Below are positions 6,875 to 61,552 of a stretch of 64,000 nucleotides of DNA, piece by piece. Origin of the DNA: Spironucleus salmonicida (lineage: Eukaryota); the NCBI RefSeq assembly GCF_000497125.1, contig NC_090602.1, positions 434,001 through 498,000 of the forward strand. The letters run 5' to 3'. The notes beneath the pieces were generated by a model. The model worked only from the letters and a program-made list of their open reading frames with translations, was not told where the DNA came from and made no database searches. Both the position numbers and the translations under genes were made by a program. Position 1 is the stretch's first letter, and every line of letters begins with the position of its first letter.

Positions 6875-7121
6875 ATTACCATTATAATATAAAATAGTTA
6901 TTATTATGATTATTTGTTGTATTTCTTTGAAATAATATACACAAAATAATACCATTCTAAGGCACCTGTAGACCCAATATAAATATAATAATAAATTTGT
7001 AATTATATAACATACAGATTCTTTCCTAAATTGATTCAACTTTTTTCCAATACAAAGTTATACAGCAAAATCACATTCTACGATCTTATGAGAAACTTTA
7101 AAAATAACCGTTCCGCTTAAA

Positions 7122-7613
7122 ATGTCACTTTCAGCTATAACCTAAAAAATAACAGTATTTTTATAGTAGCGAGATTATGTGTCCTTCTCAAACAAAGAAC
7201 TAGGTTATAGGTTGGGTATTACAACTACACGTATCTCTGATGTTCTTAACGTGCTAGCATCCGTACTGATTCTCAACCGCAAAAATCGCAATTTTATATG
7301 GAAAAGGTGTGATATTATTCATTAGTTCTAGGCATTCTACGCATCCCTAGACTCTGAAGGTAGAAATACGTCTATTTTTGAACATACGAAAACGGTTGTC
7401 TTCAAACTTAAATCTGGACACGAACTAGATAAAGACAGGCGTACGTATGATGTATTAGCTGTGCTACGCGCACTAGGCGTGATAAATAAAAATCGAAATT
7501 GGTCACTCAACGGTGAACCAGTAAATACATCGCATTTAAGTTTATTACCTACATATGAAGTGGATACAGGACTTGTTTACTAGTTTAGCTTTGGTTATGA
7601 ATTTGATCTCTGA
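7122..7613 (+). CDS. miniature E2F/DP-type double winged-helix protein, paralogue A copy 1 (163 aa)
   Basis: LGITTTRISDVLNVLASVLILNRKNRNFIWK and RRTYDVLAVLRALGVINKNRNW resemble the E2F RRxYDxxNVL...W signature. Confidence 0.8.
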
Positions 7614-8820
7614 GTTTTAATAATTATTTATATCTTGTATCATTAGTAATTTACTTTTCCAACTGACTTGTTCACTTATAATTAAGCTAATATTATAATT
7701 AATATTAGTTTAAGACAAGTCATAATATAAATATTCTTAATAGCCTACCTTCGGTTAAGGATACAGGTTTATCTATTTTGCTACAGAGCAATAAGTTCTA
7801 ACCACAAATTTTAGGGTAGCGAATAAATACTTTTACTTTATACAGTTCAATAAAGTACGCAGTAACAATGAAGAAACATCTGGCAATTTCCTTGCCTGGG
7901 AATTGGGCTAATCTGCAGCCTATATGCACCAAGATAATATTCCTCCTAGTGGCCTGTCTTGCTGTACCGTGGCGAGGCTGCCTAGTTGTCCATCGAGCGC
8001 ACTGTTGCGCTGCCTGTCATTATTTCAGGAGAAGCAGGCCATCCGGTAAACAAATCTGTCCAAGGCAGGAAAAATTACAAAAGTGCTATACTCTATAGGA
8101 TATTCACAAAAGATATCCAAAACCGCTAAGTTCAGTTTTTGCGATGGCCAGCAATATATGGAATTAATAATACTACCAACCAAAGGAATTCCTTTCTACT
8201 TGGGGTTATATCTATATTATGGATATATAAACTTATATAGCATAACTAGCGATCCGTACACTACCATTATTATATACCGATATGACCCTACGCGCCCCAC
8301 TTAGATTTAAATTATCCCTTTCAACATGACACTGAGCGCCACCACCGCCAACATTCTGAGCTTCCTCAACCAGCGTGAAAACCTCGAGTTCGCCAACAAG
8401 GACATCATAACCTAACTCAACACCACCTCGCATCGCATGTCGGACGTCCTCAACGTCTTTAGCGCCATCGGCATCATCGACAGGCACACTCGGACCTACT
8501 CCTGGAAGCGATGCGATGTTCTGCTGCGGTTCTCCGAGTTCGTTCAGAAAGTCGACTCGCCTGGCTGCAGCATGGGTATCTTAGAGCATACCCGGACCGT
8601 CGTCTTCCTACTCAAGACCGGCCAACCTATCGACAAGGTTCGACGCACCTACGACGTTCTCTCTGTACTGAGCGCTATTGGCCTGGTCGTAAAGAAGAGT
8701 AAGGCGTGGTCCCTCGTTCAGCTGTCGTACATCTAGATCCAGCAGACATTCCCCGTGACACCTCTCTCAGAGTACGACACCGGGATCCTGGACCTACCCT
8801 GCATTAGCTTCAGCTTTGAT
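7218..8820. repeat. left arm of 1603-bp inverted repeat (partner 32282-33884)
   Basis: Position p maps to 41102-p; ORF-track translations identical; no mismatch in the segments compared. Confidence 0.97.
7885..8076 (+). ncRNA. candidate structured non-coding RNA between the E2F-like paralogues
   Basis: GC-rich island with nested stems 7888-7901/8059-8071, 7950-7964/8026-8041, 7969-7978/8012-8020 and hairpin 7996-8011; G.U pairs favour the + strand. Confidence 0.45.
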
Positions 8821-32269: not shown

Positions 32270-32776
32270 TCACATATCAGGATCAAAGCTGAAGCTAATG
32301 CAGGGTAGGTCCAGGATCCCGGTGTCGTACTCTGAGAGAGGTGTCACGGGGAATGTCTGCTGGATCTAGATGTACGACAGCTGAACGAGGGACCACGCCT
32401 TACTCTTCTTTACGACCAGGCCAATAGCGCTCAGTACAGAGAGAACGTCGTAGGTGCGTCGAACCTTGTCGATAGGTTGGCCGGTCTTGAGTAGGAAGAC
32501 GACGGTCCGGGTATGCTCTAAGATACCCATGCTGCAGCCAGGCGAGTCGACTTTCTGAACGAACTCGGAGAACCGCAGCAGAACATCGCATCGCTTCCAG
32601 GAGTAGGTCCGAGTGTGCCTGTCGATGATGCCGATGGCGCTAAAGACGTTGAGGACGTCCGACATGCGATGCGAGGTGGTGTTGAGTTAGGTTATGATGT
32701 CCTTGTTGGCGAACTCGAGGTTTTCACGCTGGTTGAGGAAGCTCAGAATGTTGGCGGTGGTGGCGCTCAGTGTCAT
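32270..32776 (-). CDS. miniature E2F-like protein, paralogue B copy 2 (168 aa)
   Basis: Same as 8326-8826 except the C-terminus (SFSFDPDM vs SFSFDE). Confidence 0.8.
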
Positions 32777-33884
32777 GTTGAAAGGGATAATTTAAATCTA
32801 AGTGGGGCGCGTAGGGTCATATCGGTATATAATAATGGTAGTGTACGGATCGCTAGTTATGCTATATAAGTTTATATATCCATAATATAGATATAACCCC
32901 AAGTAGAAAGGAATTCCTTTGGTTGGTAGTATTATTAATTCCATATATTGCTGGCCATCGCAAAAACTGAACTTAGCGGTTTTGGATATCTTTTGTGAAT
33001 ATCCTATAGAGTATAGCACTTTTGTAATTTTTCCTGCCTTGGACAGATTTGTTTACCGGATGGCCTGCTTCTCCTGAAATAATGACAGGCAGCGCAACAG
33101 TGCGCTCGATGGACAACTAGGCAGCCTCGCCACGGTACAGCAAGACAGGCCACTAGGAGGAATATTATCTTGGTGCATATAGGCTGCAGATTAGCCCAAT
33201 TCCCAGGCAAGGAAATTGCCAGATGTTTCTTCATTGTTACTGCGTACTTTATTGAACTGTATAAAGTAAAAGTATTTATTCGCTACCCTAAAATTTGTGG
33301 TTAGAACTTATTGCTCTGTAGCAAAATAGATAAACCTGTATCCTTAACCGAAGGTAGGCTATTAAGAATATTTATATTATGACTTGTCTTAAACTAATAT
33401 TAATTATAATATTAGCTTAATTATAAGTGAACAAGTCAGTTGGAAAAGTAAATTACTAATGATACAAGATATAAATAATTATTAAAACTCAGAGATCAAA
33501 TTCATAACCAAAGCTAAACTAGTAAACAAGTCCTGTATCCACTTCATATGTAGGTAATAAACTTAAATGCGATGTATTTACTGGTTCACCGTTGAGTGAC
33601 CAATTTCGATTTTTATTTATCACGCCTAGTGCGCGTAGCACAGCTAATACATCATACGTACGCCTGTCTTTATCTAGTTCGTGTCCAGATTTAAGTTTGA
33701 AGACAACCGTTTTCGTATGTTCAAAAATAGACGTATTTCTACCTTCAGAGTCTAGGGATGCGTAGAATGCCTAGAACTAATGAATAATATCACACCTTTT
33801 CCATATAAAATTGCGATTTTTGCGGTTGAGAATCAGTACGGATGCTAGCACGTTAAGAACATCAGAGATACGTGTAGTTGTAAT
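32282..33884. repeat. right arm of 1603-bp inverted repeat
   Basis: Reverse complement of 7218-8820. Confidence 0.97.
33026..33217 (-). ncRNA. second copy of the candidate structured RNA
   Basis: Reverse complement of 7885-8076. Confidence 0.45.
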
Positions 33885-33980
33885 TCCTAATATTTATCCT
33901 AATTCTTTGTTTGCAAATGTAACATAATCGCGTTGTTAGAGGAATCCTGTTATCTTATTTGTAATTGCTAAAAGAGTCAT
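33489..33980 (-). CDS. miniature E2F-like protein, paralogue A copy 2 (163 aa)
   Basis: N-terminal 32 codons diverged (MTLLAITNKITGFLQQRDYVTFANKELGQILG); remainder matches 7218-7613. Confidence 0.8.
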
Positions 33981-35846
33981 TTTTAGAGAAATGGTAGTAG
34001 ATTAAGATTCTGATATGACAGGAAATATTAATTTATTTAAATTAATAGTTAAGTAAGCGAAATTGCTACCCGGTTCGTAAATATAGTTTATAATCTAGCC
34101 GATATAATTAAGTATAAAAATATATTTTTTATTCCCTAATTGCTAGTTTATGGTGTTAATTTTGATAATAAAAACTATTAATATTAGTTTTATATTATTT
34201 ATTTTAATATTCGGTAGAGTTCTGCAGATTTAAGTTTTTTTAAACGTTTACTTAACTTAATATAAATTAAAAATAATACTATTATCTTGTGTTTCCATAG
34301 TATTAAATTAAAGTGAAGAATAAAAAAATGCTAGTAACATAGTTAGTTAATAATTATTTTTAAATTCTTTATATGTTGGAATTAGATAAAATAAATAAAA
34401 TTATGAGTTAATCCAACTTTTAACATATTATAATAATATCAACTTATAGTTAATTCGCAATAATAAAAAACACTATTAGAAAAGTATTCGTAAGTAAACT
34501 GGATATACACTTTTATTGACTATAATATTTTTATTTAAACCACAAATTCTTTACTTTACGTCATTAATAAATATAAAAATTATATGTATAATTGTAAAGT
34601 TACTTTAAATTTTGCGAAGTGTGATTTCATTAATTTTGCAGATATGAATAAAAGTAGATGACATAAACTTATAATATATTCTACATATATAATCATAATT
34701 TATATGTGAAAATATAGTGCTTCCAATTTAATTTTATACTCCAACAGTATAAAATTACTACTAAATATATCTCTATTGTAAACGTAAGGATTATAATTTT
34801 ATTTTACGAATAATAAGATTTGCGATATGACTAAGATAACGAAATCTGTTATTAAAACGTCTGAATAGTCTTCTATCTACATAATATTTGGTCGATTAGT
34901 TTAAATATAGCTTAATGTTAGCCTGTATAATTAATAGTTTCAAAATTATAAAACTCAATTTGTTACAGATATCAAATAATAAAAATATTATATTTGTTAT
35001 TTATAAATATAAATGAAAAAAGAATTTAAAAATTAAACTTTTCATACTTTCATTTTACTATAATAAATAATTTTCCAGTTATATGATTTTTAATATAGAC
35101 TTGTATCGCTATCCTTTTAATTCATTTCGTATTTAGTAACCATGTAAGTTAAGTCTTTATAAATCAAATATTATTGATTTTTGATCTAATGTTATACAGT
35201 CCATCATGCAGCTAGTTGTTTTACATTTAGCAAATATTTATCTCAGTATATTGAATATTATTGAAAATCAAAAATTATAAAAACCCACTAGAATCATAAT
35301 ATTTCAAAATAGATAAAAATAACATCATATGAAATTATCAATCTAGGTACGATTAAACAAAAGTGACTTCTAGAGTAATTCAAATATAATAAATGAATTT
35401 GATATTATAGTAATAACATAATAATAGAACTATTGTGGAATTTTAGACAGAGAATACGTAAATCACGCAAGAAAATAGAATCTTGTATTTTATACAAAAT
35501 TATCAACTCCTTTATTTGATAATAATTTAATATTAATTATTAACATAATTATTAGTGAAATAATTCTCTTTATTACTAAAACTAAATAATTATAATGTTT
35601 TAGTATCAAATATTAAAATAAATGTTATTAAAATAACATTTAATTTCATGATAAATATACTATAAAACACATTGATTAACACAATATAATAATGTAATAT
35701 ATCGCAAGCCTGTATAATTATTCCACTTTAAGCATATGATTTATGTTATTTAAATAAACCTAGTTTTCTACTATATTTCAGAACATGCCGAATGATATTA
35801 ATATGTATTATTTTCAAAACTCAGTTCACTTCATTTCTTCTCAAAA

Positions 35847-53386: not shown

Positions 53387-53623
53387 ATGCCTAAGTGCGC
53401 TTCTAAAAATACAACTAAGTCTGCAGATAAACCTTCCACCACTAAGCCTTCTAAATCTGTAGACAAATCGGAAACCAAAAGTACATTGTCACCTGCTCTC
53501 TAGAAAGCATAAGAAACTCGCAGAGCTAATGCTAATGCAAAGAAAGAGCAAAAGCTTAAACGCCAAGAAACCATGAAGCGTGTTGCAGCTACACGTTTAG
53601 CTAAAAGAGCTGACAAAAAGTGA
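53387..53623 (+). CDS. small Lys/Ala/Ser/Thr-rich basic protein (78 aa)
   Basis: MPKCASKNTTKSADKPSTTKPSK...KAQETRRANANAKKEQKLKRQETMKRVAATRLAKRADKK; AGTGA stop. Confidence 0.8.
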
Positions 53624-53944
53624 CGAATTTTATCTACACAAATTCTCAGATATATTTTAAAACCTCTTCTCTCTATATTTTAATAAATTTCTTAAGTATT
53701 ATTATATAATAATATTTACTAAAATAATTTTGATTGAGAAAATTTACTATAAGTTTAAACTTTATTTATAACTATATTTATAATCTAAATTCTACTAAAT
53801 ATATTCTAATCTTTAAATTATAGTAACAAAAAAAGGTTAATTCATAAGAAATTTGAAAATTAATACACTAAATGACTTTTACATTTATATGATAATGTTA
53901 TATAGATCAGGGAATATAAAATTAATAATAAATCTATTAAAATT

Positions 53945-54613
53945 GGTTGAGCTCAGGCAGAGCACCTTAACCTAGCACGCGGTCTGGACTGGTTTTTTGG
54001 TGATAACCACGTCAACGGCGTCCGGAATGTCTGGTGCACCGTAGAAAGTGACCTGGTAGCCGTCGGCAAAAACCTACGAAGATGCTATGCCGTATTTGAG
54101 GAGGAACTCTGCATTCTTGTAGTAGTTTACGCCGTGGATGCCCACTTTGCCCTTGAAGCCGTACAGGATTGCGAGCGCTGCGATGGCCGTTGGCTCGGTG
54201 AACTACGTCCAGGTTGTGTTGAACTACCGCATAAGGACCATCTTGGCACACGCCTCGGCCGCTGACTTTGGGGAGTCCGGTACCGCTTCAGAGATGACCT
54301 GGCGCGGTCGCAGCTCGAAGTCGGCGTCCAGAGCCGCATAGCAGTCACCGGACCAGAACCTAAAGTGCCCGACCCGCTGGCCGCCACGCTGGAGGACCGA
54401 AACTGGCTGGCCGTCGAACTTCGTCTTCTGGGCGCCCAGAAACTGCGCCAGGAGCGAGGGGAACAGGGCCTGGAGCTGGCCCGCGGGGACCCAGCAGGGC
54501 CAGCAGGGCGAGTCGGCGAAGACCAGGAACTCGTGCTGCGGCTGGAACCTCTGCTGCAACACGGTGGGGAGTACGCTGGGGAGCAGCGAGCACTGGGGAT
54601 ATGGAGAGTCCAT
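53945..54613 (-). CDS. GC-rich hypothetical protein, weak THUMP/methyltransferase-like pattern; 3' end unresolved
   Basis: ATG 54613 with CCACTCC upstream; strong GC3 codon bias down to ~53945; first in-frame TGA only at 53489. Confidence 0.6.
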
Positions 54614-54728
54614 TCGTGAAGCGGAGTGGAGGGGGTCCGCACATCAGGATATAATAGGGGGCCTGGCGCGGCAGATGGCTCGCTGGGCAAATAGTATATA
54701 GTATCCGATAGTTCTGCGAACCACGCAA

Positions 54729-55106
54729 ATGGACACCGCCAGGAAGTTCGTCATCGTAGTGGCCAACGGCACGCTCTTCGACGCCAGCTTCACCCCGTGC
54801 GCCGCGGCCTTCCAGACGCTCAGGGCCGTGCAGGACAGGTGCAACAAGCTGCTCGTGGTTACGAAGGTGGACGGCGCGGAGCAGCAGGAGGCCGTGAGGC
54901 AGCAGATGGCGGCGCTGCTCCCCAACGTGCCCGCGCACCACCTGCTGTTCTGCGAGCAGGCGAAGAGCATCTACAGCTTCGTGCGCCAGTTCGACTCGCT
55001 GGTGGACCTCGTGGTGGACACGTTCCAGGAGAGCTACGACGAGACCGCGAAGTTCTACCCCGGGAAGTACCACCTCGTGCAGCAGACGCTGGACCGCGTC
55101 CTCTGA
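54729..55106 (+). CDS. PEX22-like (plant-type cytosolic domain) protein (125 aa)
   Basis: LLVVTKVDGAEQQEAVRQQM...HHLLFCEQAKSIYSFVRQFDSLVDLVVDT resembles plant PEX22 KVLFCSTxxGRTSFVRQLEPDWHIDT (from memory). Confidence 0.65.
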   Translation: MDTARKFVIVVANGTLFDASFTPCAAAFQTLRAVQDRCNKLLVVTKVDGAEQQEAVRQQMAALLPNVPAHHLLFCEQAKSIYSFVRQFDSLVDLVVDTFQESYDETAKFYPGKYHLVQQTLDRVL

Positions 55107-55129
55107 GTTCCTTTATGTTCAGTAAACCA

Positions 55130-58100
55130 TCACTCGTACTGGTTGCACAGGAACAGGTAGGTGGCCAGGGCCATCTTCCGCTTGTACAGCACGTCGTCGC
55201 CCTGCACGAGCTTGTTCAGGGGGTTGTGGCTCATCACCTGCATGGCCTTCAGCGCGCTGTGGATGTCCTCCTTCATCTTCTGCACCTCCGTCTCGCCGCG
55301 GATGATCATGTCGCGCATGTTGAACGCGTGGAAGTACGCCAGGTCCAGCTGCCCCGCCACGAAGTCCCGCACCAGCATGTCCATCTCGGGCCGCTTCGCC
55401 TCGTTGCCCGTCTGGTGGTAGATGAACTTGTCTAGCCGGCTGAAGATCACGCTCGTCTGGTCCCGGTCCACCTGCAGCTCCGTCAGGGCGAAGTCCCGCA
55501 GCAGCCGGTACGATTCCCGGATGCGGGTCGTCGTGCGGTCCAGCGCCTGCGGCTTCTCCTTGATCATGAACGAGTACAGCTTGCCCCAGTCCTGCGAGTT
55601 CACGCGCTGACAGCTGCTCAGAATGAATAGGAATGAGTCTAGGTCCGCTGCAGCTTGTAGCTGCTTTGTCATCTGGCATTTCTCGATTCGTTCTAAGATG
55701 AATTATTTCACAATATCGTCATCATCATTATAAAATGATAATTTCATTGAGTCCACCATTCGTTGCTATGATCTAGGCATTTGCTGATTAGGGGCTATAG
55801 CCTGTCGCTAATTACCTGGTGGGGACACTGGCGGTGGACGCTATGCTAATACTTTAACTGGAACTGGAACTTAAGGTTCTTACCTTGGTTCCCCTTCATC
55901 AAAGCTAAACTTATTTAATGGATCAGAAAATAGCATTCTTTCGCATCTTACTGCACCTTCCAATACCTAAAAACGGTGTTTCATTGTTTCAGGAGTAATA
56001 TCAGTTGTCTAAAAGAGCTCTTCTGGTGCCAATTTTGTCTTGCGAATAACCTAAAGTGCCCTAAATATTTGTTGGTCTGTTGGTTCTTTCACATCATCTA
56101 ATATAAGTTTCTAACTTGATACATCAGGAACATCCCTACGAGCTGCCTTGTAAACCTTAAACATATCATGCGCAGCAGGTTCAAATTCAGTGGCAACACA
56201 TGAATCTCGAAGGAAGTCAAAATGTTTTCTAGGCTTACTTCGCTCAGCCTACATGATTAAACCGATGGAATGTGGACCATAACCTGTCTCACTGGTGGCA
56301 TGCATAAGAATATAGTCATGAGATCGGGACCAAATAAAAAGAATACGCTTATAAAGAGCAGTTATATATTCAAAATCTTCTTTAGCAATTTTCTGTTGAT
56401 TTAGTAAGTGTAGAATACGATCTTCAGATGATCCAAAACAACCTAAAAAGCTGAGTTTCAGGAGCTTCAAGATCTCATATTGTTTCCTTAAATCTGTTTT
56501 TGCGCAATCGTTAATATAAAAACGTTCAGTATCAATAAGCATAAGTTTGAAGTCCTAATTAGTACGATCAGAAAAATATAAGCTGAACTTGTTATCTACA
56601 ATCCAAAATTTCACATTAAGTTCCTCTATCTTCTTTGCCTGATCAACAATTCTGTCTAGCTATTTGATATCACTACTGTTAAGATCTCCATCCTTATAAA
56701 GAACATGAAAATCAAAATGAATATGGCTGCTGATGACTCCTTCAATTTCACGCTTATTTTCTGCCGTTAGAACATCTCCTTTGTTCTGTAATACACGATT
56801 TAGCCACTATAAAAATTCATATTGCTGTAATTTAATTTACATCAGTCTAGAACGCTGCAATCTACGGATCTATAGTCGAAGTTCATCTTTATTAGTAGTT
56901 AATTTTTCATATTTAAATGGAAATTCAAGCCCATATTATGCACTAAGAATAAGAAGTTGTAGTATTATGTTGATATTTTTTGTCCTACTCATAAGATCAG
57001 TTTTCTAGATACAGCGGTGAAATGTTTCAAACGGAGATGAACCAGATGATAATCCATAGCGCAGCAAAAGTTCCACACAAGTTTTGCGTTCAAGAGAGTC
57101 AATCTACTGTGCCTAATTATAAAGTTATCCGAAAAGATCCTTAATCTGTCCTTCAGAAAGATCATAAATGCGGTCTGAAATTGCATGTATAGATTTAGGC
57201 TATTAATCATATTGAACTCCAAATACTGGGTCCTATTAGAATACAACTATCTAGTTCCGCTAAAGATCTACATGTGACTATATAAATCGTTTCAGAATGA
57301 GTTAATAAAATACACTAACATTTTTATAGAACCACAAATCCTGAAATTATTATCGGGAAGCTTCTTCTACTTTCGCTTTCTGTTCGTCTGTCAACATATG
57401 AAACTTAGACAAAGTGGGCTGCTTCTTTTACATCTATGAAGAATAGTCATTGGAAACGATTTGTAGCAACACCTAGAAATCCTTATCTCCCCTGTCTGGT
57501 CCTTATTAAGTAGGTTGTTATCCAAATATATAACCTACCATATCTCTGGGACTAAGAACCATGGTTGTAGGAACAAATAATAAGTTTCGTTTTGCGTAGT
57601 AATATCGAGGATTATATTGGTCGCAAATACGACGTACAGCCAGTTTAAGTTAATTTAAACTAATTTTTCTAATTTAGTCGTCAAAGAATAAATATGGTGG
57701 TGGTGTCTGAATTGTTCGTGTTATTGGAGTTTGAATAAGTGGTTCCACTACACTATTAAGACGACTTAACGGTTTTAGCATTTAAACTTACTACTTTACG
57801 ATAGGAGACACGAAACTAGGGGTTTAACTTTTTAATTACTATTAAATAAATTTACGTTATTTGGTTGTTGGTGGCATACGGAAATCAGATACTTAACCTG
57901 TAAAGGCTTTAATATCAATATCAAGACCAAACGCTCCCTGAATTAGTGAATTTTAAGTAAAACCGATCTCAACTGCTTACATTACCTCCTCTGATGACTT
58001 GCTTTAACGGTATCTCTGAATAACTTTGTTGAGATGTTCTGTAGGTAAAAATGCAACAGAGTTGTTACAGGATATAGTTTTTAAAACTGAGCTAAAGAAG

Positions 58101-61100
58101 CGATGTAAAACAAATAACTATGCCTATTATTAAGTCTCTGTATTAAAGAAATGTTTCTAACTAATTTTTATTCCATGAAACACTGAATTTTTCGGTCCAA
58201 AATTCATTATGTTTGACATCAAATTCGTAATCAGTAAATTATCACAAGCAATACAACGAGTATAGAAAGTCGATGCGGAAATTAAATGAACTCCAAAGTC
58301 TGACCCATAATCTGCCTATTTTAAATGTGTTTTAATTAATTCTTCAATGAAAAAGTGCTACTTTTCTGGTATGAACCTCTCTAAAATATTGGAAACTCGG
58401 TTTATCTTTAGGAATCTTACAGAAAAAGCACAAAACTCGGCAAAATCAGCTGCCTTATTGGCAAAGCTCTCAATAAATTAAGAAGCTGAATCATAGAAGC
58501 TAAAAGAGTTCTAAAAATAGATTTTACGGAAATCGAAGTTATAGTAAATTGCTTGTAAAGGAACAAATAACTCAAAAGGGCAAGCTTAAGCTAAAACTCT
58601 GGTAATAGGAAGGTCAGCAAAGGTGCTCAGTTAAAGGTTGGTTAATACACCACCCTAGCGTACGACCTAATCAGCAACTAGATAACTGATGATAGCATTT
58701 TAAGGAGCATAGTTTTACCGATGAGGTTCAAAGCACCCTCCATATGATAATATACGCGCTCTATCTATCAGTGATGTGAATGCAATAAAGCGCTCACGTT
58801 GCTGTATCTCATTTTCTGTTTAGAATACAGTATCATATAACTATCTATTAGTTTCCTCATCCAAATACTAATGTCCACCACGAATAACTATATTATCATA
58901 ACGGCACCCTCCTTAGTACGCTACAGTGATTAGTTATTTATTTAAAATAAAATCGACAGCGCCTGGTTGATTCTCGCTAGAAGAAAAAAATTCCCCTAAT
59001 TTCCAATTTTGATTTATTTTACCGCCCCATTTATAACTAGCACAATCTTCAGCTATTGAATCCATAGGTTATTCACAAATATCACAGGTTTTTCCATTAA
59101 GGATAGCCTTTTATCCATCTAGGCACTCACTACAAATAGTTGTATCTGGATAACTACTATTATTGCGCTAAAAACATTGAATAAACTGATAACTATCATT
59201 TTATAGTTTAGCAAGAGGAAGATATATATAACTTTTGATAACTGCCTTTCCACGTTCAACTCGCTTGACATCGTAGCTATTTATATCAGATACCTTAACT
59301 TCTCTTGAAACTGCCATAAACTAGCTCACAATCTGTTACCCGCATGATGCATTGTTAAAAATCATAAATTTGTTAATCTGATCCGAAATTTACTATTACG
59401 ACTGCGATATAGTAGGGAATTAATTATTGTAGTAAAGTACCATACCTTTGTCAAAATTTGTATTGCATAAATAATAAAAGGAATTGATTGAATCTAGTTA
59501 ATAATAATTAACAATCTTATCTGACACAGCTACTTCAATGTAGCTTAATCCAGAAAAGTCGTAAAACTGAGTTGAAAAATGAGAATTTGGTAGCTTAGAT
59601 CCGTAAATATGCGAAGCAAATACATGCAAATTGAACTTGCGATTTATGTTAAAAATCTAAATTAAAGATGCTTGCAAAATGAGCTCATTTTAATTATAGT
59701 GGTTCACAGTCATCCTAGTAAATTTATCGGTTAAATGCGTCGAATTTGAGCTTTCCTACTGCAAAGATGCCCCAAGCGCAGTATAATCATATGGTTAGTT
59801 TATAGCACAGTTTCCATCGAAACCTGAGACTTTTATGAAGTTAATAATTGAATTAAAAAGCTTTTAGCCGTCTTGTTTGGCTGCATGCGCCGAAAAGTAG
59901 TTCTTTTTTAATTGGTAAAACTCCTGCATCGACTGGTGTGGCACTTATTAACGATAAACCAGCACCTGCTCCTCGATAGAGTTTTCAGCCAAAATCGTGA
60001 AAACTGACGGCTACACGACCCCCAGCTACTGGTAAAAGATGTTAACAATCAGCTCAACCTGCCGTGTAGAAACGAACGGCAGCAGAACAAATCCAGGGAG
60101 CTGCTTGGACACGAATCCGTTGTGGATTTGGGTTGTCAAAGTGTACGAAATCAGCGCAGATTCTCCCAGCAAAACGACGCTCAAACGGTCGCTGGAACCG
60201 CTGAAATTTACTTCCTTATGCAGCTGGAATTTGAGCTCAACAAGGCCGCTTTATATCAGATGTTTCTTCACGCTCGGTAGCGTGAAATCTGGCACGACCA
60301 TTAGGACTTGCCCGACGCCGAAATTCGAGAAGGAGCGCACGAATCCGTCGATTTCAGCCTTGCGGCCCACCTCTGGAATTTGACTTTCCTCGGCCGAAAA
60401 GTCGTCCTGAAGCCACAGATTCTTTAGGATTTGGCCCGTGAGGTACGCCGTGAAGGAGAGATATGAAACATGTGATTTGCTAGATAGTTTCTCCTTTCGC
60501 AGCTTGTTATCGCCCAAAACCCGCTGAGCTACGATATCAGAGTCCAAGAATTGTTTAATTCGAGTTTATTCTGCCAGGGAGACATCATATTTGTAAACAA
60601 TGGATTTGGAGCCTATTGAAATGTCCGGTTTCAGATAAGAAAGATGGCGTGGAATTGTGTTATTTTCACTTAAAATGTTGTTGAAATATCCTATTTCGAC
60701 TGCTGCGAAGAGCTACTCCACTTGTTGTGCAGAAAGCCGGTCAATTTTGAGAAGAAAACGCGCATAAGACTCTAAAAATGAAGCATTTCGCAATAAAAGG
60801 CATTTTCGTTTGCACATTATTGTTTGTAGTGGTTTGTTTGTTATTAATAGCTCATAGCGATTGTTATCGTCCTCAGATATGAAAATTACGTCGCAATCAT
60901 CGTCATAAATAAGGCTTGATGTTATTCCCAGGCGTTCTAATCGCTATGCTGTTGCATAGTAATCATATCCAAAAACAGCGATCTTACCTTTTCCTTTCAT
61001 CTGAAGATAAAAAGCAATTATTTCAGCTACATCAGCAGATAATGACCACACTGCATAGTTATCTCCTGTAAGAAACTCTGGGAAAGGATAATCCAATAGG

Positions 61101-61552
61101 CGCTGCCGCACTTTAGCATATATCGCATGATTTTTTTATGTAGGAAGGGGGAAAACTAATGCTTTAGCAATAGCTTCTTCGAGCGATGTAGTAGTAGCAA
61201 AACCTGGAGTAGCTTATTGTTGCTTTTCAGGCATTATGGCCTTCTCAAGGTTAGGTATATACATATCACCACCTGGAAAACGAAATTGAGAGACAAATTT
61301 ACCATTTTTGTAAAACTAATTCGCTGGCTATAGACGTTCATTTGTAAGATCTACTTTATATCGATAAAATATTGATAGCTAATCCTTGAACGTAGCTGCT
61401 TCTAACGCTGAAATCCAGAATGGTTACTAAGGATTTGTAGTTACTACAAGAAATAAGTGTTCTTATTATGTAAATTTTTAACCAATTATGTGCGTCACAA
61501 CCTACCCTCCTAACGAACAAGGAGGTTACTTAAGAATATCTTTAACAAGCAT
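55130..61552 (-). CDS. CHD/SNF2-related chromatin protein with degenerate ATPase, Cys-rich fingers and SANT-SLIDE-like region (2140 aa)
   Basis: One frame joins track ORFs 60251-60547, 56249-56542 and 55130-55672; VFTILAENSIEEQVL (SNF2 C-lobe); several CxxC pairs at ~58000-59200; WSRSHDYILMHATSETGYG (SLIDE-like). Confidence 0.7.

What the first reader, a model, noticed from the sequence alone, without database searches (positions are those of the whole stretch)
54729..55106. PEX22-like gene in a lineage generally considered to lack peroxisomes
Seen: a 125-aa protein with LLFCEQAKSIYSFVRQF...VVDT and an upstream LVVTKV-D-x-E-x-x-E-x-V helix pattern, with no N-terminal TM. Known: PEX22 is the membrane anchor and co-activator of the E2 enzyme PEX4; the plant-type domain carries VLFCST...SFVRQL...HIDT (recalled, not searched); diplomonads lack a canonical peroxin set. 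Inference: a soluble relic PEX22 retained for a non-peroxisomal E2 role, or a marker of a cryptic reduced peroxisome.
Basis: partly seen in the sequence, partly recalled or inferred. Interest (0 to 1): 0.7.

Follow-up and report, generated by a model that had tools for sequence, protein, structure and literature searches.

The report
Anchorless PEX22-domain protein in diplomonads
A small, conserved diplomonad protein turns out to be a stand-alone copy of the domain that normally tethers and activates a ubiquitin-conjugating enzyme on peroxisomes, kept without its membrane anchor in organisms regarded as having no peroxisomes.

Summary
The 125-aa ORF at 54729..55106 (+) is real and is a gene. 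It has same-length relatives in Giardia duodenalis, G. muris and unnamed hexamitid-like sources. Its codon-position bias is extreme (GC3 0.976) and RNA-like run contigs cover it.

HAD_Pex22 (PF22978) is the best Pfam hit for 13 of 14 family members. The target scores 25.5 bits, just under the 27-bit cut-off; one relative scores 37.4. The family profile's best solved-structure hit is Arabidopsis PEX22 (6xod_B, E 2e-5). Confident models of the target and of a Giardia orthologue both rank 6xod_B first of 48,161 chains (Z 12.4 and 14.8), ahead of generic HAD folds (10.6 and 11.9).

The protein has no membrane anchor and no HAD catalytic aspartates. Its best-conserved block aligns to the PEX4-binding strand and helix of AtPEX22.

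Most likely it is a soluble relic PEX22 domain serving a non-peroxisomal E2. That function is inferred and was not tested, because no genome or E2 sequence was available. A cryptic peroxisome is unlikely.

The gene sits in a 1.67-kb, 61% GC, two-copy segment of a 29% GC genome that uses TAA/TAG for glutamine.

The parts
54729..55106 (+). CDS of the 125-aa anchorless PEX22-domain protein (stop TGA)
   Evidence: ORF. Pfam HAD_Pex22 E 1.3e-05. Relatives. Model pLDDT 85.5. AtPEX22 is the top fold match at Z 12.4. GC3 is 0.976.
54930..54995 (+). Residues 68-89 (PAHHLLFCEQAKSIYSFVRQFD): strand beta3 plus helix alpha3. This is the family's best-conserved block and it aligns to the PEX4-binding region of AtPEX22.
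   Evidence: Mean column conservation is alpha3 0.96 and beta3 0.75. The PEX4-interacting residues 212-233 (beta-strand 3 plus alpha-helix 5) come from passages of PMC8922245. The residue-number mapping is my inference, accurate to about 2 residues.
54747..54776 (+). Residues 7-16 (FVIVVANGTL): degenerate HAD motif I, with both catalytic Asp positions replaced (V11, N13)
   Evidence: Alignment A2: the nucleophile position is V/M/T and the second Asp position is N/E in all 13 full-length members. The canonical DxDGT motif is recalled knowledge.
54614..54728 (.). 115-bp divergent spacer between the target and the minus-strand gene. It is 55.7% GC, with one short AT-rich patch about 25-40 bp upstream of each ATG.
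   Evidence: Sequence, GC. AT-rich stretches within 50 bp of start codons are described as promoter-like in S. salmonicida (passages of PMC1805757).
53937..55609 (.). 1673-bp G+C-rich (61.3%) two-copy segment carrying the target, the 5' 676 bp of a minus-strand gene and the 3' 480 bp of the 2140-aa minus-strand ORF
   Evidence: In DNA run X1 it forms its own unitig at depth 22.6 against 10-11 for the flanks and for an unrelated contig. It has two left and two right neighbours. GC profile. The second copy is not in the window.
53950..54613 (-). Divergently transcribed neighbour gene (at least 221 aa, four TAG=Gln codons), with no Pfam family. It is a paralogue of the N-terminus of the 2140-aa ORF.
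   Evidence: Translation. No Pfam hit. BLASTP gives 27% identity over 248 columns, E 1e-18.
55130..55672 (-). Convergent neighbour: the last 180 codons of the ORF 55130..61552 (2140 aa under code 6). Its stop lies 23 bp from the target's stop.
   Evidence: GC3 is 0.928.

Best explanation
The gene encodes a stand-alone, soluble copy of the PEX22 cytosolic domain. This is a cap-less, catalytically dead HAD/Rossmann-like fold, conserved at about 125-129 aa across diplomonads (Giardia and hexamitids). In plants and fungi this domain binds the two C-terminal helices of the E2 enzyme PEX4 through its strand beta3 and the following helix, and it stabilises and activates the E2. The diplomonad protein has lost the N-terminal membrane anchor and the tether but keeps that strand-helix block as its most conserved part. 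I therefore propose that it works as a cytosolic obligate partner or co-activator of a ubiquitin-conjugating E2 (a PEX4 descendant or another UBC) in a peroxisome-independent ubiquitination step. Shown here: the gene is real, it is homologous to the PEX22 domain, it has no TM and it has no HAD catalytic residues. Inferred: E2 binding and co-activation.
For: Gene reality and conservation:
- Relatives at E 2.7e-18, 4.5e-13 and 4.2e-05.
- 14 proteins of 106-140 aa, including G. duodenalis and G. muris 'hypothetical proteins'.

PEX22-domain homology:
- PF22978 is the best Pfam family for 13 of 14 members, best E 2.1e-09. P0006 scores 37.4 bits against the cut-off of 27.
- Family profiles hit 6xod_B at E 2.1e-05 (next hit 0.015) and at E 2e-04 (next 0.053).
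- Foldseek ranks 6xod_B first for both models, E 1.1e-04 and 1.4e-04.
- VIA-align over 48,161 chains ranks 6xod_B first. For the target: Z 12.4, rmsd 2.5, 119 aligned, against 10.6 for the next fold. For the Giardia model: Z 14.8, rmsd 2.2, 124 aligned, against 11.9.
- Fungal Pex22p structures also match at Z 7.6-8.0.
- ESM Atlas: the top feature hit is a plant HAD_Pex22 cluster (0.90, 180 of 256 features). The top structure hit is 'putative PEX22' at TM 0.82, with the next at 0.77.

Interface:
- The most conserved element is alpha3 (0.96), together with beta3.
- It aligns to AtPEX22 KVLFCSTEIGRTSFVRQLE. By my numbering this is the 212-233 PEX4-binding region, which is the part best conserved between plant and yeast Pex22 (PMC8922245 passages). 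By my count, 8 of 22 positions are identical there, against 21% overall.

Not an enzyme and not anchored:
- No DxD motif in 13 of 13 full-length members.
- No TM-grade segment in 14 of 14 members.

Precedent:
- Peroxisome-free Plasmodium, Cryptosporidium and Gregarina keep Pex4 plus a putative Pex22 (PMC5737649 passages).
- Preaxostyla keep Pex19 or Pex3 (PMC6759080 and PMC9746703 passages).
Against: - No E2 partner was identified or tested. The genome is not held. None of the 54 of 63 non-nested window ORFs that I scanned carries UQ_con or a peroxin domain.
- The target's own Pfam score (25.5) is 1.5 bits below the curated cut-off.
- Single sequences do not reach PEX22 in the PDB. The target gets no significant hit and P0006 gets 6xod_B only at E 0.79 among noise.
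- Generic HAD folds follow closely at Z 10.6 and 11.9. Three of 14 members also touch Hydrolase_6 at E 7.5e-4 or weaker.
- PEX4-PEX22 specificity rests on non-conserved salt bridges (PMC8922245), so conservation of the block does not prove E2 binding.
- Without an anchor the protein cannot do PEX22's defining job of tethering.
- I found no report of a PEX4-type E2 in diplomonads.
Confidence: 0.45

Rival explanations
1. It is a PEX22-derived or HAD-like pseudoenzyme that has been re-used as a scaffold or small-ligand sensor with no link to ubiquitin conjugation. It could bind another protein, or a phosphorylated metabolite or nucleotide, in the degenerate HAD pocket.
For: - The fold is shared with many nucleotide- and phosphate-binding proteins: NT5C-like at TM 0.77, and deoxyribonucleotidase-like, MDP-1 and USP at Z 8.5-10.6.
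- D97 (the motif-IV-like Asp) and S102/Y103/T106 are nearly invariant outside the putative E2 surface.
- No PEX4 is reported for diplomonads.
- The presumed Giardia orthologue behaves as a regulated soluble protein. GL50803_2012 was up-regulated by host secretions (PMC4751611 passage). The link of that tag to P0013 rests on a recalled numbering convention.
Against: - The strongest conservation lies on the strand-helix block that is the E2 interface in solved PEX22 complexes.
- The HAD nucleophile and the second Asp are both gone in 13 of 13 full-length members, which weakens a phosphate-pocket role.
Confidence: 0.33
2. It marks a cryptic, highly reduced peroxisome in diplomonads, with the protein recruited to the membrane by another factor.
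For: Entamoeba was long thought peroxisome-free, then found to have peroxisomes with only seven peroxins (abstract of PMC8629394 in the listings). PEX22 is otherwise a dedicated peroxin.
Against: - No TM or tether in 14 of 14 members.
- The papers read list Giardia among peroxisome-free organisms.
- Peroxisome-free apicomplexans also keep Pex4 and a putative Pex22, so retention does not imply an organelle.
- No peroxin domain occurs among the scanned window ORFs.
- A genome-wide census could not be run.
Confidence: 0.03
3. It is an active small HAD phosphatase that merely resembles PEX22.
For: HAD-superfamily folds fill the lists below PEX22. There are weak Hydrolase_6 hits in 3 of 14 members.
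Against: - Motif I has no Asp at either catalytic position in 13 of 13 full-length members.
- There is no cap.
- PEX22 outranks every HAD enzyme by sequence profile and by structure.
Confidence: 0.03
4. The ORF is not a native gene: it is foreign GC-rich DNA, a contaminant or an assembly artefact.
For: The island is 61% GC in a 29% GC window, and it is a collapsed two-copy unitig.
Against: - The neighbouring island gene uses TAG=Gln four times, as the rest of the genome does, and it has an AT-rich paralogue 6 kb away.
- Orthologues exist in Giardia.
- Runs of a second study hold the segment joined to the window's right flank.
- G+C-rich segments with high-GC3 genes that have Giardia homologues are a described feature of S. 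salmonicida (PMC1805757 passages).
Confidence: 0.01

Closest known systems
Arabidopsis thaliana PEX22 (PDB 6XOD chain B; Pfam PF22978 HAD_Pex22)
   Same: Same domain. It is the best profile hit (E 2.1e-05) and the best fold match (Z 12.4 for the target and 14.8 for the Giardia model, aligning 119 of 125 and 124 of 129 residues). The two share the LFC...S.VRQ(L)EPD...DT block, which covers the PEX4-binding strand and helix.
   Different: AtPEX22 has 283 aa, with an N-terminal transmembrane domain and a long unstructured tether (PMC8922245 passages). The diplomonad protein is the bare domain of 125 aa. Identity is only 17-21%. The host lineage is regarded as peroxisome-free, and no PEX4 partner is known.
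Fungal Pex22p (S. cerevisiae 2Y9M/2Y9P/4BWF; O. polymorpha 5NKZ)
   Same: Same Rossmann-like fold, Z 7.6-8.0. It serves as E2 (Pex4p) binding and co-activating domain (abstract and passages of PMC8922245).
   Different: It is more distant than the plant protein, is membrane-anchored and falls under a different Pfam family name (peroxin_22, as cited in PMC8172628).
Pex4 plus putative Pex22 retained in peroxisome-free apicomplexans (Plasmodium falciparum, Cryptosporidium parvum, Gregarina niphandrodes)
   Same: A PEX22-like protein is kept after loss of peroxisomes, and the authors propose a new, non-peroxisomal ubiquitination role (PMC5737649 passages).
   Different: A different supergroup. The authors call the orthology unclear, and the T. 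gondii protein has two predicted TMs.
Relic Pex19 (Monocercomonoides) and Pex3/Pex19 (Paratrimastix) in Metamonada
   Same: These are peroxins surviving in peroxisome-free metamonads with re-used functions.
   Different: They belong to a different machinery (membrane-protein insertion) and a different lineage (Preaxostyla). PEX22 or PEX4 is not mentioned for metamonads in anything my searches returned.
Cap-less HAD phosphatases (MDP-1 1U7O/1U7P, deoxyribonucleotidase-like 3BWV, T4 Pnkp phosphatase domain)
   Same: Same core fold and size, Z 9.2-11.9.
   Different: They have the DxD nucleophile motif (recalled), whereas the diplomonad family has none. They rank below PEX22 in every search.

Membership tests
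PEX22 (peroxin, PEX4 anchor and co-activator) | C-terminal soluble Pex22 HAD/Rossmann-like domain | tested here: met
   AtPEX22 is the first-ranked match by family profile, Foldseek, VIA-align wide and the ESM Atlas. 13 of 14 members hit PF22978.
PEX22 (peroxin, PEX4 anchor and co-activator) | N-terminal transmembrane anchor (plus tether) to the peroxisomal membrane | tested here: not met
   The protein begins at the domain. The maximum KD(19) is <=1.41 in 14 of 14 members. The longer annotated Giardia forms add only 6-11 polar residues. A 'longer' homologue search found no extended form, which is weak evidence.
PEX22 (peroxin, PEX4 anchor and co-activator) | Binds PEX4 through strand beta3 and the following helix, and activates it | not testable with these tools
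   No diplomonad E2 sequence could be obtained: there is no genome and no E2 in the window. The only indirect evidence is that the block is the most conserved part of the family.
PEX22 (peroxin, PEX4 anchor and co-activator) | Co-occurs with PEX4 and the RING peroxins PEX2/10/12 in the genome | not testable with these tools
   No whole genome is held for this window. Literature searches returned no diplomonad PEX4.
Pfam PF22978 HAD_Pex22 | Whole-protein score at or above the curated gathering score (27 bits) | tested here: inconclusive
   The target scores 25.5 bits, P0004 24.1, P0005 24.6 and P0006 37.4. The collection's precomputed table lists PF22978.2 for the target and 10 of its 13 relatives.
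HAD phosphatase superfamily (active enzymes) | Motif I DxD with the nucleophilic Asp at the end of strand 1 | tested here: not met
   V11 and N13 in the target. The two positions are V/M/T and N/E in all 13 full-length members. The canonical motif is recalled.

The most novel reading that the evidence does not exclude
Diplomonads retain a PEX4/PEX22-type E2-plus-co-activator pair that has been freed from any membrane. Together with the parallel retention in peroxisome-free apicomplexans, this would mean the module has an ancient, essential, peroxisome-independent substrate. Examples would be quality control at mitosomes or the ER, or recycling of some other import receptor. It would make that hidden function directly testable in Giardia, which has genetic tools.
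Probability: 0.25. Interest if true: 0.7.

Novelty: new variant of a known kind. Interest (0 to 1): 0.5.

Why it matters
PEX22 is known only as the membrane anchor and activator of the peroxisomal E2 PEX4. A conserved, anchorless PEX22 domain in a whole lineage regarded as peroxisome-free has three consequences.

- It adds a peroxin relic to Metamonada beyond Pex3 and Pex19, which supports a peroxisome-bearing ancestor.
- It parallels the unexplained Pex4/Pex22 retention in Plasmodium and Cryptosporidium, pointing to a peroxisome-independent job for this module.
- It gives functionally blank Giardia 'hypothetical proteins' a concrete, testable hypothesis: E2 binding.

My searches returned no paper that reports a diplomonad PEX22, although automatic Pfam tables already tag these proteins.

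Tried and rejected
- **Single-sequence searches.** The target against PDB sequences gave nothing significant. NCBIfam gave nothing near its cut-offs. The word-index search found only the query itself. P0006 against the PDB put 6xod_B at E 0.79 among Pumilio noise.
- **Search for longer (anchored or fused) relatives.** None among 8000 scored candidates. The tool itself calls this weak evidence.
- **Whole-genome peroxin and E2 census.** Impossible, because no genome is held.
- **DNA around relatives in metagenome contigs.** The alignment was too divergent. P0004 alone and alignment A3 both found no confirmed locus, so synteny and GC bias of relatives remain unseen.
- **RNA evidence.** No RNA holder is listed on record. 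The 2019 runs are RNA only by the tool's guess. A poly(A)+adapter loose end at 53632 and zero cover of the 53703-53904 spacer strengthen that guess. Contigs cannot give strand, ends or level.
- **ESM Atlas for the neighbour gene.** Not accepted, because the protein needs the code-6 reading. I did not pursue it.
- **Earlier scan notes.** None for this genome, this sequence or these words.
- **Literature on Giardia E2 repertoires and PEX4.** Nothing usable.
- **Rejected reading: LGT of the island.** Arguments against it are the TAG=Gln use, the AT-rich paralogue and the Giardia orthologues.

Full report

The window as a whole reads TAA and TAG as sense codons. Under NCBI table 6 it resolves into very long ORFs, for example 1368 aa with 109 reassigned codons and 2140 aa with 107. 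Several of these carry ordinary eukaryotic domains: Pkinase plus POLO box, ABC transporter, DHH/DHHA2/CBS, E2F/DP, adenylate kinase, longin-synaptobrevin, SNARE, YEATS and MFS. Three further observations point the same way:
- the family has Giardia relatives;
- a transcript ends in poly(A) 9 nt after its TGA, and passages of PMC1805757 give 9-14 nt as typical for Spironucleus salmonicida;
- the composition is patchy in G+C (see below).

Under table 6 the target's frame stays open upstream to 53889. That stretch overlaps the opposite-strand gene and looks like no protein, and every homologue starts at the equivalent of M1. The closest upstream in-frame ATG would add 18 non-hydrophobic residues.

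**It is a real, conserved gene.**
- An exhaustive phmmer scan of 1.84 billion representatives found three relatives besides the query itself. They are 125, 126 and 129 aa long, with E 2.7e-18, 4.5e-13 and 4.2e-05.
- A profile of these four found 14 proteins of 106-140 aa. They include 'hypothetical proteins' of Giardia duodenalis assemblages and G. muris.
- Codon-position G+C is 0.63/0.35/0.976, a periodicity that only coding sequence shows.
- Contigs of three runs from a second study cover the gene. X5 and X6 cover it in full; X8 covers it from 54794. The tool guesses these runs are RNA. They carry a poly(A)+adapter end at 53632 and leave the AT-rich spacer 53703-53904 uncovered, which supports the guess. 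Strand, ends and level cannot be read from contigs.

**What it is.** Five partly independent lines put PEX22 first.
1. **Pfam.** HAD_Pex22 (PF22978) is the top family for the target at E 1.3e-05 and 25.5 bits, 1.5 bits below the curated 27. It is also the top family for each relative, and P0006 clears the cut-off at 37.4 bits. Overall 13 of 14 family members match at E <= 0.01; the fourteenth is a fragment.
2. **Family profiles against all PDB sequences.** Arabidopsis PEX22 (6xod_B) comes first at E 2.1e-05, with the next hit at 0.015. With the 14-sequence profile it comes first at E 2e-04, with the next at 0.053.
3. **Fold of the target.** An AlphaFold2 model of the target (pLDDT 85.5, pTM 0.79) has 6xod_B as its best Foldseek hit (E 1.1e-04, TMq 0.69). 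6xod_B is also rank 1 of 48,161 chains in a Foldseek-independent structural scan: Z 12.4, rmsd 2.5 Å, 119 residues aligned, 21% identity. The next is a deoxyribonucleotidase-like HAD protein at Z 10.6. Fungal Pex22p structures appear at Z 7.6-8.0.
4. **Replicate with a Giardia orthologue.** Its model (pLDDT 95.9, pTM 0.89) gives the same answer with a wider margin: 6xod_B at Z 14.8, rmsd 2.2 Å, 124 aligned, against 11.9 for the next fold. Foldseek also ranks 6xod_B first, E 1.4e-04.
5. **ESM Atlas.** The nearest cluster by language-model features is a plant HAD_Pex22 cluster (0.90, 180 of 256 features). The nearest by structure is 'putative PEX22' at TM 0.82, ahead of NT5C-type nucleotidases at 0.77.

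The limits should be stated as plainly. The relationship is invisible to single-sequence searches. Generic HAD folds are only 1.8-2.9 Z behind. I could not build a tree with true PEX22s, because the session gave me no PEX22 sequences.

**What it is not.**
- It is not membrane-anchored. No family member has a TM-grade hydrophobic window (maximum KD19 <=1.41 in 14 of 14, always on beta-strands), and the protein starts directly with strand 1. A search restricted to longer proteins found no extended form, which is weak evidence.
- It is not a phosphatase. At the HAD motif I position the two catalytic aspartates are V11 and N13 in the target, and V/M/T and N/E in all 13 full-length members. The canonical motif is recalled knowledge.

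**How it most likely works.** Passages of the Arabidopsis PEX4-PEX22 structure paper (PMC8922245) make three points.
- This is the region most similar between plant and yeast Pex22.
- Binding is dominated by a conserved central hydrophobic patch, with non-conserved salt bridges setting specificity.

Counting along the alignment, and using the 175-residue chain against the 111-283 construct (an inference good to about 2 residues), residues 212-233 correspond to target residues about 68-89. These form strand beta3 and helix alpha3 of the model. This is the family's most conserved part: mean column conservation is 0.96 for alpha3 and 0.75 for beta3, against 0.47-0.71 for most other elements. It is also where the target is most like AtPEX22, with 8 of 22 positions identical by my count against 21% overall.

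I therefore commit to the reading that the protein is a soluble E2-binding co-factor descended from PEX22. Homology, loss of the anchor and loss of catalysis are shown. E2 binding is inferred. Confidence is 0.45.

The main rival, at 0.33, is that the domain has been re-used for a partner or ligand unrelated to ubiquitin. A cryptic peroxisome (0.03), an active phosphatase (0.03) and an artefact (0.01) are unlikely, for the reasons given under each rival.

**Comparison with what is known.** PEX22 is listed as a fungi-plant-protist peroxin with a TM (PMC8172628 passages). There are two precedents for peroxin relics.
- Peroxisome-free Plasmodium, Cryptosporidium and Gregarina keep Pex4 and a putative Pex22. 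The authors call the orthology unclear and propose neofunctionalisation (PMC5737649 passages).
- Within Metamonada, Monocercomonoides keeps Pex19, and Paratrimastix uses Pex3/Pex19 at its mitochondrion-related organelle.

Three searches returned no paper describing a diplomonad PEX22 or PEX4: PEX22+Giardia; Giardia+PEX4+ubiquitin-conjugating; and Metamonada/peroxins/Pex4. The one paper that names the presumed Giardia orthologue, GL50803_2012, lists it among up-regulated 'hypothetical proteins' with no fold information (PMC4751611 passage). The link of that tag to P0013 rests on a recalled numbering convention. Automatic Pfam tables already attach PF22978 to these proteins. The novelty is therefore one of recognition and interpretation: a new, anchorless variant of a known domain family in a peroxisome-free lineage.

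**Context: the G+C island.** The gene lies in the most anomalous stretch of the window.
- Bases 53937-55609 are 61.3% G+C, against 29.3% for the rest. No other 1673-bp window exceeds 45.4%.
- GC3 is 0.976 for the target, 0.928 for the 3' end of the convergent ORF and 0.796 for the divergent gene. Even the 115-bp spacer is 55.7% G+C.
- The other 62 non-nested ORFs have GC3 of 0.18-0.54.

In the DNA run X1 this exact stretch is a separate 1673-bp unitig at depth 22.6. The window's flanks, two alternative flank contigs and an unrelated contig all sit at 9.7-11.3. The unitig joins two different left and two different right neighbours, and both alternative flanks are AT-rich. So the island is a two-copy segment whose edges coincide with the compositional edges. 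The second copy is not in the window. X1 may be the source of the assembly, so this is not independent confirmation of the arrangement.

The island is native rather than foreign. Its other gene uses TAG=Gln four times, and that gene is a 27%-identical paralogue of the N-terminus of the adjacent 2140-aa ORF (E 1e-18).

G+C-rich segments holding high-GC3, weakly expressed genes with Giardia homologues were described for S. salmonicida and left unexplained (PMC1805757 passages).

A second duplicated segment in the window (7119-8820 and 33983-32282, inverted, 98.3% identical) is also G+C-elevated. It is 0.41 inside against 0.20-0.26 in three of its four flanks. GC-biased gene conversion between copies is a testable explanation, but gene ends coincide with these edges, so this remains a lead.

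**Verdict.** Interest is 0.5. A peroxisome or diplomonad specialist would find it a noteworthy, moderately surprising relic, and it turns a blank Giardia protein into a concrete experiment.

Noticed in passing
window 53937-55609: The G+C island (61.3% against 29.3% elsewhere; target GC3 0.976) is a two-copy segment. In DNA run X1 it is its own unitig at twice the flank depth, with two left and two right neighbours. Its edges coincide with the compositional edges, and both alternative flanks are AT-rich. This may bear on the unexplained G+C-rich regions of S. salmonicida (PMC1805757); GC-biased gene conversion between copies is one idea.
   Followed up: partly
window 7119-8820 and 32282-33983: An inverted duplication of 1703 bp at 98.3% identity carries E2F/DP winged-helix genes. 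It is also G+C-elevated (0.41 inside against 0.20-0.26 in three of four flanks), with a sharp drop at the repeat edge.
   Followed up: partly
window 53950-54613 (-) and 60653-61552 (-): The island's minus-strand gene has no Pfam family. It is a paralogue (27% identity, E 1e-18) of the N-terminus of the 2140-aa ORF. In this copy it has no TGA until 53489, so it runs into an AT-rich spacer that the RNA-like runs do not cover. Those runs instead join the island to the alternative left flank.
   Followed up: partly
window 55130-61552 (-): A 2140-aa ORF under code 6 (107 TAA/TAG codons) has no Pfam domain at E <= 0.001. Its last ~160 codons lie inside the G+C island, so composition changes abruptly within one reading frame.
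   Followed up: no
window 53441-53632 (+): A short stretch is covered by very deep contigs in the RNA-like runs (word depth about 580-1200, against about 110-125 for the island). It ends in a poly(A)+adapter loose end at 53632, 9 nt after a TGA at 53621-53623. This is probably the 3' end of a highly expressed small gene.
   Followed up: no
whole window: TAA and TAG are read as sense codons (NCBI table 6), and TGA is the only stop. In the G+C-rich island the reassigned Gln codons seen are all TAG, whereas TAA dominates in the AT-rich spacer read-through.
   Followed up: partly
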